Positions 7,545-20,715 of a stretch of 64,000 bases of DNA are shown piece after piece. Each line of letters begins with the position of its first letter. The stretch's first letter is position 1. Under the pieces are notes generated by a model. It saw only the letters and a program-made list of their open reading frames with translations. It ran no database searches and was not told the DNA's origin. The stretch lies in sequence record PX670417.1. The stretch is one strand, 5' to 3'. The position numbers and the translations under genes were made by a program. This DNA is from a phage.

Positions 7545-7770
7545 CACCTGCACCCACCTACCTGCACAATTCTAAAATGATTTTTCTTGCCCGACCTGAT
7601 TTTTCTCTGCACGTTTTGAAAATGAAAAAGCTCTTTGGAGATTACCTGCACAGTTTGAAAATGAATTTTCTCTTTGGAGTTCAAAATTCTCTCTACAGAT
7701 TTCTCTACAGAACTCTACCTGCACAATTCTAAAATGAAAAAGCCCTCCTTACCTGAAAATTTACCAGATA
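7545..7770. repeat. Imperfect direct repeats (4 copies of about ACCTGCACA(A/G)TT(C/T)(T/G)AAAATGA, including a tandem unit of about 39 bp) upstream of the early promoter
   Basis: Copies at about 7559-7580, 7605-7630, 7642-7669 and 7715-7742; CTCTTTGGAG also duplicated. Confidence 0.6.
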
Positions 7771-7809
7771 AGAAAGGCTTAGTCTATTGTGAATATTCTA
7801 CAGAGTTTC

Positions 7810-8595
7810 TTAGTTCTTTGCGTCTAAGAAGGTAACTTCCGGTGAAGAGAAAATTCCCTCAACATCCTCATCAGTTCTTGCATAGATATATGTATCTGCA
7901 TCACTGCCAAATGTTACTGCAATTCTGTGATTGCTCTTCGACAGGTGGGTAACTAGAGCGTTACTTAGAGACATCTTTTCAACCGGAGGGTTACTTTGAT
8001 GTACCTTACCTTTTCTTCGTCTGAAGAGGGTAACTGCATCGTCAGTGAACACTACTACACCTGCAAAGTATTCTGGTTCACAGTAGTTCTTCCAACCTGA
8101 GCGTAACTTGTGGTACATCTCTCCTTCGTAGACATATAGATAGACATCTACACTCTTCATCACCTGATTAATGATAACGGTGACGGCTTGAGGGTCTAGT
8201 CCACCGATACCTGCACCAATCATAGGTAAGCCAACTTTCTTCAACTGATTAACTTCACAGTATCTGTTAAGTTGCTTCAAAGATGACTCTAAAGCACTGT
8301 AACGGGCATCTTTACCAGTCTTAAGCTGAGTGTAAAGATTAGCTATACGGCCTTGTTTTAAACGCGCTACAGAGAAATTACCTAGTAAATTTTCACAGGG
8401 TTTGTGGCCTATACCACCTGCATACAGATAAACTTCTGTATCAGTCTCATATGCTTTTGGGTAAAGTTTAGAAATCTTGTCAGCGATACCTGCACCCATT
8501 AAGTTCATACAGTTGCAACCGTGACCAATAATATCAAACTTACCTTTATCAAATGCGGAGAAGATATCCCCATTGATGATTTTTACAATACCCAT
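7810..8595 (-). CDS. Macro-domain protein, TARG1/DarG-like (candidate ADP-ribose hydrolase or binder), with about 100-aa C-terminal extension
   Basis: Motif series GDIF / HGCNCMNLMGAGIA / VGLPMIGAGIGGLD / VDVYLYVY, compared by eye with TARG1 (GDLF / HCISEDCRMGAGIA / LSMPRIGCGLDRL). Confidence 0.55.
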   Translation of the reverse strand: MGIVKIINGDIFSAFDKGKFDIIGHGCNCMNLMGAGIADKISKLYPKAYETDTEVYLYAGGIGHKPCENLLGNFSVARLKQGRIANLYTQLKTGKDARYSALESSLKQLNRYCEVNQLKKVGLPMIGAGIGGLDPQAVTVIINQVMKSVDVYLYVYEGEMYHKLRSGWKNYCEPEYFAGVVVFTDDAVTLFRRRKGKVHQSNPPVEKMSLSNALVTHLSKSNHRIAVTFGSDADTYIYARTDEDVEGIFSSPEVTFLDAKN

Positions 8596-8796
8596 TTAGC
8601 ATCTCTCCCAAGATTCTTTATCTTCTGAAGGTTTTACACGTTGTCCTTCGTGGTCTACCCAGATACATCCACAACCTTCACAGATTACTGGCATTGCATA
8701 GCCAGCTTTAAAGTCATCTTCAGTGATAAGACCTTTTAAGTCACCTGTATCACGTCCGAACATTTCGATAGCACAGTCTTTGCAGAAGTCAGCCAT
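8596..8796 (-). CDS. Small Cys-rich protein (66 aa; CxxC...CxGC)
   Basis: Track ORF 8596-8874 trimmed to the internal ATG that removes the overlap with the upstream gene. Confidence 0.4.
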   Translation of the reverse strand: MADFCKDCAIEMFGRDTGDLKGLITEDDFKAGYAMPVICEGCGCIWVDHEGQRVKPSEDKESWERC

Positions 8797-9016
8797 GAAT
8801 AATTGCCTCTTGAATGATGATACCTTTACCACAGCGACTTTTAAAGTCTTCCAATGGTTCAGAGATGAAGCCACGTAAACAGTCAGTGAATACTAAGTTC
8901 TTCCGGTAAGCTATCACATCATTTGCTGTAAATGGTATGACCTCATTTCGTCCAATGAACACTGCTGACCTGATAAGTTTCCGTGTCTTTTTATCTCTGG
9001 CTAGTATTACTCTCAT
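8789..9016 (-). CDS. Hypothetical protein (75 aa)
   Basis: ORF in the leftward gene series. Confidence 0.4.
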   Translation of the reverse strand: MRVILARDKKTRKLIRSAVFIGRNEVIPFTANDVIAYRKNLVFTDCLRGFISEPLEDFKSRCGKGIIIQEAIIHG

Positions 9017-16023: not shown

Positions 16024-16035
16024 AATCTTCTCCAG

Positions 16036-16062
16036 AAATTAAAAAGGCTCCCGTAGGAGCCT
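16036..16062 (-). terminator. Intrinsic terminator after the NAMPT-like gene (AGGCTCC-CGTA-GGAGCCT + T-run)
   Basis: GC hairpin and T-run on the minus strand. Confidence 0.6.
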
Positions 16063-16076
16063 CTTATCATATACTT

Positions 16077-17876
16077 TTAAAGCTGCTTGTCAATATTGTT
16101 TCGAATATCACCAAGAGTTGTGTAACCGAACTGCTCAGAGTCGCTAAAGACTAAACGTAAAGCACAAGCTGGATGTTCAAGTGCATCTGCAAAGCTCTGG
16201 AATCCATAGCCATCTACAGCTTTCAGCTTATCACCATCCCACATAGGTACTACACCACCAAAAGCAGACTTCTTAACACCACTATCTGTTTTAGGGTCTT
16301 TTGCAAGCATAATCTCTTTACCACCAATGCTTGCAAGAGTTGCTTTGACAGCAAATGCAAAGGTGTCACGAGTCATGTACTGGTAAGTGTAAGAACCTAC
16401 ACCAAACACTACGTTAGAGCTTGCAAAACCCATTTCATACAGACGCTTCAGGATTTCGTTTGCACGTTCCAGCGTGATAGAGTCGCCATAGATAAGGCCA
16501 ATGTGTTCATCTAGTACCTTAAAACCTTTAGAGTTGATAGTCCCTCCAAAGATGTTATACAGGGTCTTAATAGCCCCATCAATCTCTGCTACAGGACGTG
16601 TTACAACGTTTGCAGAGCCAACCATATAAGCATTTTTCAACATCACTGTATCAGCAACTTCAAAGTCTTCTCTGTCAACAACCATCTCGTAGCCTTCTGA
16701 CAGTAGCCATCCAGCAATACCATAACTGATGTTTTCAAGCTTCATGTTCAGAACAGCATTCAACATTGTGTCGCTTGCTTCCAGCTTGCTTAGGTGTTCG
16801 TAATAAGCTTTTTTAGCGCACTCTAAGTGGATTGCTTTATAGCCTGTGACAATATGTACAGGGTCGCCAGAGTCAGGACGAATTACCAGTTTGCCGTCAC
16901 GTTCCATAATCTCTTTACGAAGTGCTGGTAAGATTTCTGATACAGTTCTCCAGAAGTTATAAGTGTCTGAAACAACACTTGCAATACCAGTTGGGTAAGT
17001 TTCTGTTAAGAAACGACGGAAGGTTTGTAACTCACCTTTAAAGCGTCTTTCTTCTTCAATCAACTCATTACCACCTTCCCAAGCAATGTTTGCACACATT
17101 ACAGAGTGTTCAGTGGCTGGTACAGAGCTACCAATATCAGAGATTGGGTAGGACTGTCCGTAGATGCGTTTAGCTGTATATACAGCAGGGAAGCTATCAG
17201 TTCCTTTAAAGCTGGTTAAGTGTCCTACAGCGTTAAATGCGTCATCAGTAAAGCCGGACATACCACGCATAGCAAAGTCATGACACTGATAAGGCAAATG
17301 TAAGTCGTTATCACAAGTAAGGTCAGACCACTTCTTACAGATACGTTTGTAGTGCAATGCAATAGTTGCAATGGTACAAGCCTTCCAAATCTCAGCAGAG
17401 AAAGCATCTTCCAGATACCCAGCTACCCAATGGAAACCTGAAACAGTGTTCTGGAAGACAATCATTGGTACACGCATAGGAACCACTGTTCCTTCTTCTA
17501 CAGCGTATACTTCAACTGGTAGATAACCTAAATCGTGAAGTGCTTCCCAATGTTCTCGACCAATAGCATCTTTACCCAGAACACCGTTCATGACTTCTAA
17601 GATTTCGTCAATTGCTTCTTTTTTGTCACGTTCAAAGAAGGTGGCGTTCCAGTGGTCTATCAAGTAATCTTTAACAAAACGTTGAATACCAAAAGCAACT
17701 ACACCGTCAATTGCTAAAGGGCTGTTAAACCATTTATCACTACGTGGTGTCAGGTTGAACATTAGGTACTCTGTTGCACTAGGATACTGATAAATATGGC
17801 CAGACTTGTAAGCATCCGCGTTTAAACCTGCTGGTACTGCATAAAGTGATTTAGTCATCTTTTTAATCTCTCTCAA
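16077..17876 (-). CDS. Nicotinamide phosphoribosyltransferase (NAMPT/NadV) family protein (599 aa); possibly a Namat-type nicotinamide ADP-ribose transferase
   Basis: Long ORF recognised as NAMPT-family from the translation; adjacent to a Prs-family gene. Confidence 0.75.
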   Translation of the reverse strand: MREIKKMTKSLYAVPAGLNADAYKSGHIYQYPSATEYLMFNLTPRSDKWFNSPLAIDGVVAFGIQRFVKDYLIDHWNATFFERDKKEAIDEILEVMNGVLGKDAIGREHWEALHDLGYLPVEVYAVEEGTVVPMRVPMIVFQNTVSGFHWVAGYLEDAFSAEIWKACTIATIALHYKRICKKWSDLTCDNDLHLPYQCHDFAMRGMSGFTDDAFNAVGHLTSFKGTDSFPAVYTAKRIYGQSYPISDIGSSVPATEHSVMCANIAWEGGNELIEEERRFKGELQTFRRFLTETYPTGIASVVSDTYNFWRTVSEILPALRKEIMERDGKLVIRPDSGDPVHIVTGYKAIHLECAKKAYYEHLSKLEASDTMLNAVLNMKLENISYGIAGWLLSEGYEMVVDREDFEVADTVMLKNAYMVGSANVVTRPVAEIDGAIKTLYNIFGGTINSKGFKVLDEHIGLIYGDSITLERANEILKRLYEMGFASSNVVFGVGSYTYQYMTRDTFAFAVKATLASIGGKEIMLAKDPKTDSGVKKSAFGGVVPMWDGDKLKAVDGYGFQSFADALEHPACALRLVFSDSEQFGYTTLGDIRNNIDKQL

Positions 17877-17879
17877 AAT

Positions 17880-17895
17880 GGGGCTTTGAAGCCCC
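17880..17895 (-). promoter_or_regulatory. GGGGCT-TTGA-AGCCCC hairpin between the Prs-like and NAMPT-like genes
   Basis: Same 16-nt hairpin as at 13107-13122. Confidence 0.5.
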
Positions 17896-17904
17896 TATAA
17901 AGTT

Positions 17905-18801
17905 TCAATCAATGGTAATTACAGTAACTTGGGCATAATGTGTTAAGCCACGGTCTTTAGATTCCCCTAAAGAGTTTGTAGTGTAGATATGGTCAATACC
18001 ATTGTCAAGTAAGTTTTCAACACCTTTAGAGAAAATGCCATGAGTTACATAGAGTTCCACACGTTTTGCACCTGCTTCACGAAGATGTTTAGCTGCTTCT
18101 ATGAATGTTCGACCTCCATCACAAATATCATCAAGAATCATGACAGTTTTATCTGTCAAATCAACAGCATCAAGGATTCGCATACCAGTAATTTCACCAG
18201 TCTTAAGGTTGCGTACTTTAGACATTGTGATGTATGGTTTATCCACCTCTTTAGCAGCCTCTTCAGTCTTCTTAGCTGCACCTGCGTCTGGGGCTACCAA
18301 GAAATCAATGCGTGGGTCACTTGCAAAGTGTACTGCTACATCTTTTTGCTTCATGCTCTGAAAGCACTTAAATAAGTTTTCTGCAACATTACTGTGAGGG
18401 TCAAGAGCACATACTGCATCAAAACCCATTGCATTAACGAGGTTGGCAAAAGCTTTCAGTGCTGCTGAATCGCCTTTGAACATATGGCGGTCATATCGAG
18501 CATTCGGTAAGAACCCGAAAACAACGGTTTTCATCGCTGATTTATATGGAACAAGACTGTCAACGGCATCCTTAGCCAAAGCTAATGCAAACAGTGTATC
18601 TTTATCATATCCCTGCACAGTCAATATAACATTGTCAATCTTACCAGCATTACGCTCAGTAAACTTAACAAAGTCTTCAGAGAAGTTTCCACCAATTTCT
18701 CCAGATGGGAATTGGATTATATTAAATTTTTCTGTGTGGAAGAATTTCTCTTGTGCGGTGACAACGGCTTCAATAATAGTTTTCATAGTTTTCTCTCTCA
18801 A
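17905..18801 (-). CDS. Ribose-phosphate pyrophosphokinase (PRPP synthetase, Prs) family protein (298 aa); possibly an Adps-type ADP-ribose pyrophosphokinase
   Basis: Prs-like motifs, including MILDDICDGGRT resembling the PRPP-binding loop. Confidence 0.75.
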   Translation of the reverse strand: MREKTMKTIIEAVVTAQEKFFHTEKFNIIQFPSGEIGGNFSEDFVKFTERNAGKIDNVILTVQGYDKDTLFALALAKDAVDSLVPYKSAMKTVVFGFLPNARYDRHMFKGDSAALKAFANLVNAMGFDAVCALDPHSNVAENLFKCFQSMKQKDVAVHFASDPRIDFLVAPDAGAAKKTEEAAKEVDKPYITMSKVRNLKTGEITGMRILDAVDLTDKTVMILDDICDGGRTFIEAAKHLREAGAKRVELYVTHGIFSKGVENLLDNGIDHIYTTNSLGESKDRGLTHYAQVTVITID

Positions 18802-19991: not shown

Positions 19992-20267
19992 TTAAAGTTT
20001 AATACAGAACTTATGAAGTTCTTCTTCAGTGATACCTATCGGAGTGATACCTTCTCTGATATTTTGAATCCTGTAGAAGTCTCCAAACTTATCTGATTCA
20101 TGAATGACAAACGTGACATTCTTCACAATCGTTGCAAGAGCACATAATGAACGTGAACCAAACTTTTCTCTCGTATAAATCATCCAAGCATCTAACTTGT
20201 TGATGTCGTAAGTCCACTTACCAGAATAATCATTCTGCTCGCCATTGACAATCACCTTGCCACCCAT
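19992..20267 (-). CDS. Hypothetical protein (about 91 aa; start trimmed to internal ATG)
   Basis: Track ORF 19992-20348 overlaps NrdG by 119 nt; the ATG at 20267 (MGGKVIV...) leaves a 38-nt overlap. Confidence 0.35.
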   Translation of the reverse strand: MGGKVIVNGEQNDYSGKWTYDINKLDAWMIYTREKFGSRSLCALATIVKNVTFVIHESDKFGDFYRIQNIREGITPIGITEEELHKFCIKL

Positions 20268-20715
20268 ACTCTTTTCTCCAGAGGTTTTGGTTATCAGAAC
20301 CACGATATGGTTTAACTGTTGGTTTAGAAGAATCATACTTACCATCAATCACCACGTCAACATATTTCATCACATCTAGGTGAATTTTTTCGTGTAACTG
20401 AAAACCTGTCCATAGCCAGATAGATTTTTCTGGGTAAACAGTTTTAATACGTTTACATATGTTGGTGACCTCTTGAATGTTTCTGTCATCAAGAGGCTCT
20501 CCCCCAAGTATTGACAACCCACTGATGGCATTATCATCCATTAGCTTAATGATGCCGTAAAGGTTTGCATAAGTAAACTCTTTACCAGCATTAAACTTCC
20601 AAGACTCCCTGTTAAAGCAACCTTCACAGTGATGTTTACAGCCAGCTACGAAGAGGCTTACACGAACCCCTTCACCATTAGCTGTGTCAAATGGTCGAAT
20701 CTCCATGTAATTCAT
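20230..20715 (-). CDS. nrdG: Anaerobic ribonucleotide reductase activating protein (radical SAM), NrdG
   Basis: CKHHCEGC (CxxxCxxC) cluster; overall pattern similar to T4 NrdG as recalled. Confidence 0.75.
   Translation of the reverse strand: MNYMEIRPFDTANGEGVRVSLFVAGCKHHCEGCFNRESWKFNAGKEFTYANLYGIIKLMDDNAISGLSILGGEPLDDRNIQEVTNICKRIKTVYPEKSIWLWTGFQLHEKIHLDVMKYVDVVIDGKYDSSKPTVKPYRGSDNQNLWRKEYGWQGDCQWRAE

What the first reader, a model, noticed from the sequence alone, without database searches (positions are those of the whole stretch)
7810..8595. TARG1/DarG-like macro-domain protein: candidate ADP-ribose-removing anti-defence factor
Seen in sequence: GDIF, HGCNCMNLMGAGIA, VGLPMIGAGIGGLD and VDVYLYVY follow the order and spacing of the TARG1/OARD1 macro fold, plus a 100-aa C-terminal extension of unknown fold. 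Established knowledge: TARG1-like macro domains, including DarG antitoxins, hydrolyse ADP-ribose adducts on protein or DNA, and DarT ADP-ribosylates phage DNA. Inference: the protein may reverse host ADP-ribosylation or bind ADP-ribose-derived signals; with the NAD+ module about 8 kb away, the phage carries an ADP-ribose/NAD+-centred toolkit.
Basis: partly seen in the sequence, partly recalled or inferred. Interest (0 to 1): 0.65.

Follow-up and report, generated by a model that had tools for sequence, protein, structure and literature searches.

The report
Phage macrodomain enzyme with orphan tail
This Felix-O1-like phage gene encodes a real ADP-ribose-processing macrodomain enzyme whose relatives in other phages disarm two bacterial defences (DarTG2 and aRES); it is ordinary in kind, but carries a lineage-specific extra domain of unknown function.

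Summary
Window 7810-8595 (-) is a 261-aa ORF, and all four quoted motifs are present. It matches Pfam Macro above threshold. AlphaFold2 gives pLDDT 90, and TARG1, DarG and Poa1p are the closest solved folds.

The window is a Felixounavirus. The protein is 100% identical to phage mio gp17 and orthologous to Bas63 gp95 ('putative phosphatase').

It belongs to a large phage family (phrog_335, about 2,800 phage records). Two members of that family have been studied:
- T4 Tk.4/AdfM is needed for T4 to resist DarTG2.
- Vibrio phage Gary Adpp is an ADPR-1''-phosphate phosphatase. It lets the NARP1 NAD+ pathway beat the aRES defence.

The 'NAD+ module' 7.5 kb away is NARP1 itself, first described in Bas63.

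The TARG1/DarG catalytic Lys is an invariant Gln (Q90) across the family, and TARG1 Asp125 is Gly. The protein is therefore fold-like but not mechanism-like TARG1/DarG.

The C-terminal 105 aa form a confident beta-rich domain. It has no Pfam, PDB or viral-structure relative and occurs only in Ounavirinae-like phages. It is under purifying selection.

Best reading: an AdfM-type remover of ADP-ribose from DNA (about 0.45). Main rival: a remote Adpp for NARP1 (about 0.3). I rate it a new variant of a known kind, of moderate interest.

The parts
7810..8595 (-). Complete gene for the 261-aa macro-CTD protein. It is 100% identical to phage mio mio_17 (QIG66567.1) and orthologous to Bas63 bas63_0095.
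   Evidence: ORF list; tblastn 100% identity to MN850631; annotations.
8128..8595 (-). Macro domain, aa 1-156, of the Poa1p/TARG1/DarG structural class.
   Evidence: Pfam PF01661. AF2 secondary structure E3-8...E150-155. Foldseek hits to TARG1, DarG and Poa1p. Profile search against the PDB gives TARG1 at E 4e-17.
8482..8523 (-). HGCNCMNLMGAGIA loop (aa 25-38). H25 aligns with Poa1p H23 and TARG1 H32. N28 aligns with DarG N22, PhiKZ AdfM N23 and Poa1p N26. The stretch includes the first glycine-rich phosphate-binding loop.
   Evidence: Invariant columns H25, G26, N28, C29, M33, G36, A38; alignments.
8326..8340 (-). NLYTQ motif (aa 86-90). Q90 occupies the position of the catalytic Lys of TARG1 (K84) and DarG (K80).
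   Evidence: Invariant N86, L87, T89, Q90 in 31 homologues. Profile alignment to TARG1. MAFFT alignment with DarG, PhiKZ gp104 and T2 Tk.4.
8194..8226 (-). PMIGAGIGGLD loop (aa 124-134), the second glycine-rich loop. G131 occupies the position of TARG1 D125 and Poa1p F152. The GGLD stretch resembles DarG GNGGLD.
   Evidence: the sequence was read directly.
7813..8127 (-). C-terminal domain (CTD), aa 157-261: one helix, six beta strands, one helix. It is a lineage-restricted orphan domain.
7740..7780 (-). Terminator-like hairpin (17 pairs followed by a T run) directly after the stop codon. It suggests the gene ends a transcription unit.
   Evidence: Consensus scan only; about one such site is expected by chance in this region.
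16077..17876 (-). Namat (NAMPT-like) gene of NARP1, orthologous to Bas63 gene 80. This is context, 7.5 kb upstream on the same strand.
   Evidence: Pfam NAPRTase plus NAMPT_N; annotations; function shown in Bas63.
17905..18801 (-). Adps (PRPP-synthetase-like) gene of NARP1, orthologous to Bas63 gene 79. This is context.
   Evidence: Pfam Pribosyltran and Pribosyl_synth; annotations; function shown in Bas63.

Best explanation
The gene encodes an early-region phage ADP-ribosyl hydrolase of the Tk.4/AdfM type.

The N-terminal macro domain binds an ADP-ribose adduct in the cleft formed by the HGCNC...MGAGIA and IGAGIGGLD loops and cleaves the bond at the 1'' carbon of the distal ribose. The most likely physiological substrate is ADP-ribose placed on thymidines of phage single-stranded DNA by host DarT2-type toxins. 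Removing it would restore replication and release free ADP-ribose.

Catalysis cannot use the TARG1/DarG lysine, which is Gln here. It presumably relies on N28, H25 and Q90 to position water, as in Poa1p-like or substrate-assisted macro enzymes.

The C-terminal 105-aa domain packs against the macro domain and acts as a lineage-specific accessory module. Its targeting, partner-binding or specificity role is unknown.

What is shown and what is inferred:
- Shown here: the fold, the family membership, the motif conservation, the domain architecture and purifying selection.
- Shown elsewhere, for T4 Tk.4 only: the genetic requirement against DarTG2.
- Inferred: that this orthologue has the same substrate, the catalytic residues, and any role of the CTD.
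For: 1. T2/T4 Tk.4 is a clear homologue: 34% identity and 81 bits over the whole macro domain, with the same HGCNC, NLYTQ and IGAGIG signatures. A tk.4 knockout sensitises T4 to DarTG2.
2. The specific family models that score best are DarG models: PADLOC at E 3.7e-13 and NCBIfam at E 1.2e-12. The GGLD loop and N28 are DarG-like.
3. Structure: TARG1 and DarG are the top PDB matches.
4. Of the 48 nearest single-domain relatives in IMG/VR (31-42% identity), 43 have no Namat or Adps within 10 kb. The macro clade nearest to this protein is therefore mostly not NARP1-linked.
5. One Felixounavirus contig (L012) has a clean deletion of exactly Adps plus Namat yet keeps an intact 261-aa gene.
6. The gene lies 15 genes from NARP1, not within it.
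7. No phage-encoded ADP-ribosyltransferase is annotated in record bases 1-70,000 of the 83,259-base mio genome, which points to a host-made substrate.
8. The macro domain is under strong purifying selection, dN/dS 0.07.
Against: - The lysine essential in DarG (K80) and TARG1 (K84) is Gln in every family member.
- The biochemical activity of Tk.4 on ADP-ribosylated DNA has not been shown; the evidence is a genetic result in a preprint.
- The phylogeny does not place the Ounavirinae clade with Tk.4 rather than with NARP1-associated macros. Deep nodes have bootstrap support below 30.
- The biochemically characterised family member, Adpp, is a small-molecule phosphatase.
- The phage carries NARP1, which would make an Adpp activity useful. 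Macro and NARP1 co-occur throughout the lineage.
- No data exist on Felixounavirus sensitivity to DarTG2.
Confidence: 0.45

Rival explanations
1. Remote Adpp. The protein is an ADPR-1''-phosphate phosphatase. It converts the product of RES-domain NAD+ phosphorylases (the aRES defence) into ADP-ribose, which the phage's own NARP1 (Adps plus Namat, 7.5 kb upstream) rebuilds into NAD+. This would be a split 'NARP1-AP' pathway.
For: - Vibrio phage Gary Adpp belongs to the same family: 27% identity and 53 bits. NARP1-adjacent macros of PaP1-like phages score 30% and 75 bits, almost as high as T2 Tk.4.
- Adpp shares the HxCNC, NxYxQ and GxGxxGG motifs.
- Adpp was shown in vitro to dephosphorylate ADPR-1''P and is required for the three-gene operon to defeat aRES.
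- The HxCNC motif and the His are shared with yeast Poa1p, the classical ADPR-1''P phosphatase.
- The window phage carries NARP1, which was proven in Bas63.
- Macro-CTD and NARP1 keep the same relative position in divergent Ounavirinae-like contigs. Both regions are found in 254 phage records.
- NARP1 alone cannot beat aRES, so a phosphatase would close a real gap.
Against: - The gene is not in or next to the NARP1 operon. It lies 15 genes away, beyond rIIA/B and the lysis genes, and so does not meet the paper's criterion of lying within two genes of NARP1. No Escherichia, Salmonella, Shigella or Citrobacter phage appears in the supplementary files.
- Most NARP1-adjacent macros carry HQ[AC]NC and YGQY rather than HGCNC and YTQ.
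- They lack the CTD.
- Contig L012 lost NARP1 but kept the gene.
- The nearest short relatives are mostly not near NARP1.
Confidence: 0.3
2. Signal eraser or sponge. The macro domain binds or degrades ADP-ribose-derived immune signals, such as Thoeris gcADPR or His-ADPR, and so prevents effector activation.
For: Macro domains are the His-ADPR sensors of type II Thoeris. Macro domains have been predicted to act on cADPR-type signals in phage conflicts (PMC9503650).
Against: No family member has been shown to do this. The known anti-Thoeris proteins are unrelated folds. Strict conservation of the putative catalytic H25, N28 and Q90 argues for an enzyme rather than a sponge. Nothing in the genomic context points to it.
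Confidence: 0.07
3. Protein or RNA de-ADP-ribosylase. The enzyme reverses mono-ADP-ribosylation of proteins or mRNA by host defence transferases (for example CmdT-like enzymes), as TARG1 and viral Mac1 domains do.
For: TARG1 is the best structural and sequence match in the PDB. Macro enzymes of this class are often promiscuous (established knowledge). mRNA ADP-ribosylation defences exist in E. coli (PMC11618068).
Against: The TARG1 catalytic Lys and Asp are both absent. No homologue has been linked to such a defence. The CmdTAC paper mentions macrodomains only in its references.
Confidence: 0.08

Closest known systems
T4/T2 Tk.4 = AdfM (anti-DarT factor macrodomain; HIDEN-SEQ preprint 10.1101/2025.11.20.689424)
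   Same: Homologous macro domain: 34% identity and 81 bits over aa 3-157. It has identical HGCNC and NLYTQ signatures, with Gln in place of the DarG/TARG1 lysine. It is an early, non-structural gene of a virulent E. coli myovirus.
   Different: Tk.4 is a single 155-aa domain with no CTD. T4 has no NARP1. The loop is GIGKGNW rather than GIGGLD. The anti-DarTG2 phenotype has been shown only for T4.
Adpp of Vibrio phage Gary and other NARP1-associated macro proteins (preprint 10.64898/2026.01.28.702374)
   Same: Same broad phage Poa1p-like macro family (27-36% identity, 34-75 bits). It shares the HxCNC, NxYxQ and GxGxxGG motifs. It is encoded by a phage that also has Adps plus Namat.
   Different: Adpp lies inside or within two genes of the NARP1 operon, whereas this gene is 15 genes away. 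Most Adpp proteins carry HQxNC and YGQY. They have no CTD. ADPR-1''P phosphatase activity has been shown only for the Gary protein.
DarG antitoxin macro domain (T. aquaticus 5M31/5M3E, M. tuberculosis 5M3I)
   Same: Same fold (target TM 0.79-0.82). The Asn of the VNxVN/HGCNC motif and the GGLD loop are conserved. DarG profiles are the best-scoring specific models.
   Different: The catalytic K80 is Gln. The score of 47.7 bits is far below the equivalog cutoff of 250. There is no homologue of the DarT-binding C-terminal domain and no adjacent darT gene.
Human TARG1/OARD1 (4J5Q/R/S)
   Same: It is the best PDB match by both sequence and structure: E 2e-5 with the single sequence, E 4e-17 with the profile, Foldseek E 2.4e-10. 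The His of the HxxxxxC motif and both glycine loops are conserved.
   Different: K84 is replaced by Q90 and D125 by G131. S35 is replaced by N28. TARG1 has no CTD.
PhiKZ gp104, also named AdfM (Cell Rep 2026, PMC13309987)
   Same: A phage-encoded orphan macro domain. It was shown biochemically to remove DarT2 ADP-ribose from DNA, and an Asn mutant (N23A) at the position of N28 has reduced activity.
   Different: Only 24% identity and 26 bits. It is a true DarG-like protein that retains the FPTK lysine, and it is imported into the phage nucleus. It represents an independent acquisition that shares the name.
Yeast Poa1p (6LFQ), ADP-ribose 1''-phosphate phosphatase
   Same: The HSCNC/HGCNC motif, including the His (H23) that was mutated in the structural study. 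The fold match has TM about 0.75. This similarity is the source of the 'phosphatase' annotation of this gene family.
   Different: Poa1p has Ser, not Gln, after the conserved Thr, and Phe152 where this protein has G131. It is a eukaryotic tRNA-splicing housekeeping enzyme.

Membership tests
Macro domain superfamily (Pfam PF01661) | Profile match above the curated gathering score | tested here: met
   32.3 bits against a cutoff of 22, E 1.1e-7, aa 25-141 covering profile positions 2-117 of 118.
Macro domain superfamily (Pfam PF01661) | Three-layer alpha/beta/alpha fold with two glycine-rich ADP-ribose-binding loops | tested here: met
   AF2 pLDDT 90.3. 240 PDB macro chains match at E <= 1e-3, the best with target TM 0.85. 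The loops MGAGIA and IGAGIGG are invariant or nearly so.
TARG1/OARD1 | Catalytic Lys84 (forms the covalent intermediate) and Asp125 | tested here: not met
   Profile-to-TARG1 alignment: K84 aligns with Q90 and D125 with G131, in all 31 family members.
DarG antitoxin (NCBIfam NF048014, PADLOC DarG) | Equivalog-level profile score | tested here: not met
   47.7 bits against a cutoff of 250. Only profile positions 4-153 of 338 matched. PADLOC matched positions 17-146 of 329.
DarG antitoxin (NCBIfam NF048014, PADLOC DarG) | Catalytic Lys80 in the FPTK motif | tested here: not met
   The aligned residue is Q90, in the motif LYTQ.
DarG antitoxin (NCBIfam NF048014, PADLOC DarG) | C-terminal DarT-binding domain and an adjacent darT toxin gene | tested here: not met
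   The CTD is not matched by the DarG profiles or by any PDB chain. The neighbours are small phage ORFs and none is annotated as a DarT-like toxin.
Phage Poa1p-like macro family (phrog_335; T4 Tk.4/AdfM and Adpp) | Sequence homology to the family profile and to the characterised members | tested here: met
   phrog_335 at E 7.5e-113. T2 Tk.4 at 81 bits, PaP1 macro at 75 bits, Gary Adpp at 53 bits.
Phage Poa1p-like macro family (phrog_335; T4 Tk.4/AdfM and Adpp) | Signature H-x-[CA]-N-C, N-x-Y-[TG]-Q and G-[AC]-G-x-x-G-G motifs | tested here: met
   HGCNC, NLYTQ and GAGIGGLD are present in the window protein and conserved across the IMG/VR relatives.
AdfM (T4 Tk.4 type) | Confers resistance to DarTG2 by removing ADP-ribose from thymidine in ssDNA | not testable with these tools
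   This needs a phage knockout and an in vitro assay. Only the T4 genetics are available.
AdfM (T4 Tk.4 type) | Single-domain architecture of about 150-165 aa | tested here: not met
   The protein has 261 aa, with an extra folded domain of 105 aa.
Adpp / NARP1-AP | Macro gene within two genes of Adps-Namat (the paper's operational definition) | tested here: not met
   It is 7.5 kb and 15 genes away in Bas63, mio and the window. The same spacing holds in the IMG/VR long-form loci that extend far enough upstream, except L012 and L029.
Adpp / NARP1-AP | Co-occurrence with a NARP1 pathway in the same genome | tested here: met
   The one exception is L012, which has a clean NARP1 deletion.
Adpp / NARP1-AP | ADPR-1''-phosphate phosphatase activity | not testable with these tools
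   This needs purified protein and LC-MS, as was done for the Gary Adpp.

The most novel reading that the evidence does not exclude
The protein may be a two-module, DarG-like 'orphan antitoxin' assembled independently by Ounavirinae phages. In this reading the macro domain erases ADP-ribose from DNA or dephosphorylates ADPR-1''P. Either reaction yields free ADP-ribose that the phage's NARP1 recycles into NAD+. The fast-evolving, lineage-specific C-terminal domain would bind a host defence protein (for example DarT2 or aRES) or dock the enzyme onto Adps/Namat. One protein would then link the reversal of ADP-ribosylation to NAD+ reconstitution. A sister lineage (Erwinia-type, L037/L038) has an unrelated extension of about 105 aa at the same place, which would fit a swappable specificity module.
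Probability: 0.12. Interest if true: 0.7.

Novelty: new variant of a known kind. Interest (0 to 1): 0.42.

Why it matters
- Felixounaviruses are common therapeutic and biocontrol phages of E. coli, Salmonella and Shigella.
- Bas63 is the phage in which NARP1 was discovered. Its gene 95, the orthologue of this gene, has not been characterised in any paper found here.
- Two 2025-2026 preprints assign two different anti-defence activities to members of one macro family. This protein sits between them in sequence and lives in a NARP1 phage. It is therefore a clean test of whether the family is bifunctional or has split by substrate.
- The family works without the lysine thought essential for DarG and TARG1, so it also bears on macrodomain catalysis.
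- The orphan C-terminal domain is a candidate new partner-binding or specificity module.
- If the protein simply behaves like Tk.4, the result is a routine annotation upgrade from 'putative phosphatase' to 'AdfM-like ADP-ribosyl hydrolase'.

Tried and rejected
1. CTD homology searches found nothing outside the family.
- Pfam at E <= 10 gave no match.
- The word-indexed search of 5.8 billion proteins returned only a fragment of the same gene.
- A full HMMER profile search of 1.84 billion representatives returned only macro-CTD proteins, one truncated copy (P0065) and a few repetitive, low-complexity proteins that hit many unrelated Pfam families, which I treat as spurious.
- Foldseek against BFVD returned only the SUSP2 orthologue.
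- The afdb50 library was unavailable.

2. CTD as a homologue of the DarG DarT-binding domain: rejected at the level of sequence profile and PDB fold. A functional analogy remains possible.

3. CTD as a basic nucleic-acid-binding domain: not supported. Its pI ranges from 4.6 to 9.8 across the clade.

4. Phylogeny to decide between AdfM and Adpp: a neighbour-joining tree of 39 macro domains leaves the deep nodes unresolved. Only the Ounavirinae long-form clade holds together, with bootstrap 69. The first attempt timed out.

5. The search for related loci with the CTD alignment failed because no block was conserved enough.

6. Literature on the Bas63 or Felixounavirus macro gene, and on Felixounavirus against DarTG, turned up nothing useful. 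PhageMaP screened Bas63 against 33 defence systems taken from Gao et al.. That paper never mentions DarT, and gene 95 is not mentioned.

7. Phage-encoded ADP-ribosyltransferase partner: none is annotated in record bases 1-70,000 of the 83,259-base mio genome. This is an annotation-level check only.

8. The small Cys-rich ORF just upstream as a conserved partner: it is not conserved in divergent relatives.
Full report
**Observation**

Window 7810-8595 carries, on the minus strand, a 261-codon ORF with an ATG start. A tail of about 105 residues follows.

The macro assignment is statistically secure.
- Pfam Macro scores 32.3 bits against a gathering score of 22.
- phrog_335 'phosphatase' matches at E 7.5e-113.
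- DarG models match at E about 1e-12 over the macro part.
- TARG1 is the best PDB sequence match, at E 2e-5 with the single sequence and 4e-17 with a family profile.
- An AlphaFold2 model built on 31 homologues has mean pLDDT 90.3 and pTM 0.89.
- Foldseek ranks TARG1 first (E 2.4e-10, target TM 0.81-0.85), then DarG of T. aquaticus and M. tuberculosis (TM 0.79-0.82) and yeast Poa1p (about 0.75).

**Where the window comes from**

The region is 93-96% identical in DNA to many Felixounavirus genomes. The protein is 100% identical to gp17 of Escherichia phage mio, annotated 'putative phosphatase'. It is the orthologue of bas63_0095 in phage JohannRWettstein (Bas63).

The gene sits at the end of a run of same-strand early-region genes: Adps, Namat, rIIA, rIIB, lysin, polynucleotide kinase, spanins and small ORFs. 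It abuts the stop codon of a small Cys-rich ORF. A terminator-like hairpin follows it, and then a non-coding gap of about 500 bp that contains a four-copy repeat.

**The family**

tblastn finds relatives of the macro domain in 2,797 phage records, with only 2,802 matching places in all, so nearly every record holds a single copy. Only about 258 records cover the full length. The single-domain hits in T-even phages lie next to the vs gene. In T2 that gene is tk.4, 'contains A1pp phosphatase motif'.

Thirty-one homologues share invariant H25, G26, N28, C29, M33, G36, A38, P46, G72, N86, L87, T89, Q90, P124, G127 and G129.

Three alignments map the known catalytic residues: a profile alignment to TARG1, a MAFFT alignment with DarG, PhiKZ gp104 and T2 Tk.4, and the Tk.4-Poa1p alignment.
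- TARG1 K84 and DarG K80 correspond to Q90.
- TARG1 D125 and Poa1p F152 correspond to G131.
- DarG N22, PhiKZ N23 and Poa1p N26 correspond to N28.
- Poa1p H23 and TARG1 H32 correspond to H25.

The protein therefore has the fold of TARG1 and DarG but lacks the residues that define their mechanism. Its HxCNC motif is Poa1p-like and its GGLD loop is DarG-like.

**What homologues are known to do**

Two preprints give experimental anchors.

In a transposon screen of T4, tk.4 was the single hit on a DarTG2 host, and a clean deletion sensitised T4 to DarTG2. The authors named the gene adfM and inferred, but did not show, removal of ADP-ribose from DNA. Earlier work had shown that T4 resists DarTG2 independently of AdfA and AdfN.

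Separately, Osterman et al. found that 15% of NARP1 operons include a Poa1p-like macro gene. They showed that the protein from Vibrio phage Gary (Adpp) converts ADPR-1''-phosphate to ADP-ribose. ADPR-1''-phosphate is the product of the aRES NAD+ phosphorylase defence. With Adpp, NARP1 can rebuild NAD+; NARP1 alone fails against aRES.

Their Table S1 sequences belong to the same family as the window protein. In pairwise BLASTP the window macro domain scores as follows:

| Comparison protein | Bits | Identity |
|---|---|---|
| T2 Tk.4 | 81 | 34% |
| PaP1 NARP1-adjacent macro | 75 | 30% |
| Gary Adpp | 53 | 27% |
| PhiKZ gp104 | 26 | 24% |

PhiKZ gp104 is a different, truly DarG-like protein that has also been named AdfM. 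It was shown biochemically to de-ADP-ribosylate DNA.

**The NAD+ module**

The ORFs at 17905-18801 and 16077-17876 are PRPP-synthetase-like and NAMPT-like. They correspond to Bas63 genes 79 and 80. Those are the two genes in which NARP1 (Adps plus Namat) was discovered and shown to rebuild NAD+ from ADP-ribose and nicotinamide.

**Discriminating the two main readings**

A neighbour-joining tree of 39 macro domains leaves the deep nodes unresolved. The Ounavirinae long forms make their own clade, with bootstrap 69.

The context evidence cuts both ways.

For the Adpp reading:
- Every long-form locus with enough upstream sequence has Namat about 7.5-8.3 kb and Adps about 9.3-9.8 kb upstream on the same strand. 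This includes relatives whose macro-CTD protein is only 32-41% identical to the window protein.
- The macro and NARP1 regions are each found in 254 phage records with nearly the same taxon breakdown.

Against the Adpp reading:
- The gene is 15 genes from NARP1, not in the operon.
- Most NARP1-adjacent macros have HQxNC and YGQY rather than HGCNC and YTQ.
- 43 of the 48 nearest single-domain relatives have no Namat or Adps within 10 kb.
- One Felixounavirus contig (L012) has a clean 2.75-kb deletion of exactly Adps plus Namat while keeping an intact 261-aa gene.

I therefore rank the AdfM-like reading first (about 0.45) and the remote-Adpp reading second (about 0.3). Macro enzymes of this class are often promiscuous, so both activities could reside in one protein. 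PhageMaP screened Bas63 against 33 defence systems from Gao et al. and does not mention gene 95, so it does not discriminate.

**The C-terminal domain**

Residues 157-261 fold confidently: pLDDT is 81-94 across this stretch of the full-length model and 80.9 for the domain alone. The predicted order is helix, six strands, helix. The full-length pTM of 0.89 suggests a fixed packing against the macro domain.

The domain has no relatives outside the family:
- No Pfam match.
- No other viral structure relative.
- Among 1.84 billion protein representatives, a profile finds only macro-CTD proteins of Ounavirinae-like phages.

Only P174, G179 and (nearly) Y236 are conserved across the clade. Identity to the window protein falls much faster in the CTD than in the macro domain:

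| Homologue | Macro domain identity | CTD identity |
|---|---|---|
| P0002 | 80% | 56% |
| P0009 | 52% | 24% |
| P0013 | 43% | 22% |

Within Felixounavirus, dN/dS is 0.19 for the CTD and 0.07 for the macro domain. The CTD is thus a selected but faster-evolving domain. Its net charge is not conserved, with pI from 4.6 to 9.8, which argues against a generic DNA-binding role.

Erwinia-type relatives (L037, L038) have a protein of the same length. Its C-terminal 105 residues show no similarity to this domain, and its motif reads AQGCNC. This suggests that the extension is a replaceable module.

The DarG C-terminal DarT-binding domain is not a detectable homologue. The macro-plus-accessory-domain architecture is nevertheless analogous to DarG. 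That analogy is the basis of the more novel, low-probability reading.

**Verdict**

The 'anti-defence ADP-ribose eraser' idea is now backed by experiments on homologues.

The finding needs three corrections:
1. The TARG1/DarG catalytic residues are not conserved.
2. A second, equally concrete function, ADPR-1''P phosphatase for NARP1, competes with DNA de-ADP-ribosylation.
3. The gene belongs to an already recognised, very large phage family.

What is new is the Ounavirinae-specific two-domain architecture and the open question it poses in the phage where NARP1 was discovered. I rate it a new variant of a known kind, with moderate interest (0.42).

Noticed in passing
window 7559-7752: Four copies of a direct repeat of about 29-34 nt (TACCTGCACA[A/G]TT[C/T][T/G]AAAATGA...) lie in the non-coding gap of about 500 bp downstream of the macro gene. 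The last copy overlaps the terminator-like hairpin at 7740-7780. In Bas63 two small + strand ORFs (bas63_0096 and 0097) are annotated in the equivalent gap between the macro gene and the next gene; they may be spurious. The repeats could be promoters or regulatory sites for the next transcription unit.
   Followed up: partly
window 8596-8799 (-): A small Cys-rich ORF (66 aa in mio, with CxxC...CxxCxC, zinc-ribbon-like) has a TAA stop that directly abuts the macro ATG, which suggests translational coupling. A 63-aa CxxC...CxxC ORF sits at the same place in the divergent contig L003, but the sequences are not clearly homologous, and L004 has an unrelated 103-aa ORF there.
   Followed up: partly
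L012 (IMGVR_UViG_3300045988_004931), locus about 2540-2560; equivalent to window about 16033-18779: This is a natural Felixounavirus variant with a clean 2.75-kb deletion of exactly the NARP1 genes (Adps plus Namat). The flanking genes and the macro-CTD gene are intact.
   Followed up: yes
L037 8486-9268 and L038 10001-10783: Erwinia-type Ounavirinae-like phages encode a 260-aa macro protein whose C-terminal 105 or so residues are unrelated to the window CTD (hmmsearch finds nothing). Their motif reads AQGCNC, with Gln replacing the otherwise invariant His. This may be a swapped accessory domain.
   Followed up: partly
literature: Two only distantly related phage macro proteins have both been named AdfM: T4 Tk.4 (Gln at the DarG K80 position) and PhiKZ gp104 (DarG-like, retaining FPTK). 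The window protein scores 81 bits to T2 Tk.4, the T2 orthologue of the first, and 26 bits to the second. Annotation transfer by name alone would mislead.
   Followed up: yes
P0026 (339 aa, metagenomic): This family member has an internal insertion and a long C-terminal region, and carries Pfam PF20274 in addition to Macro. It is another example of this macro clade acquiring extra modules.
   Followed up: no
window 20230-20715 (-): This ORF encodes a radical-SAM / 4Fe-4S activating enzyme (Fer4_12, E 2e-43). In mio an anaerobic ribonucleotide reductase is annotated two genes beyond the orthologue. This is ordinary Felixounavirus nucleotide metabolism.
   Followed up: no
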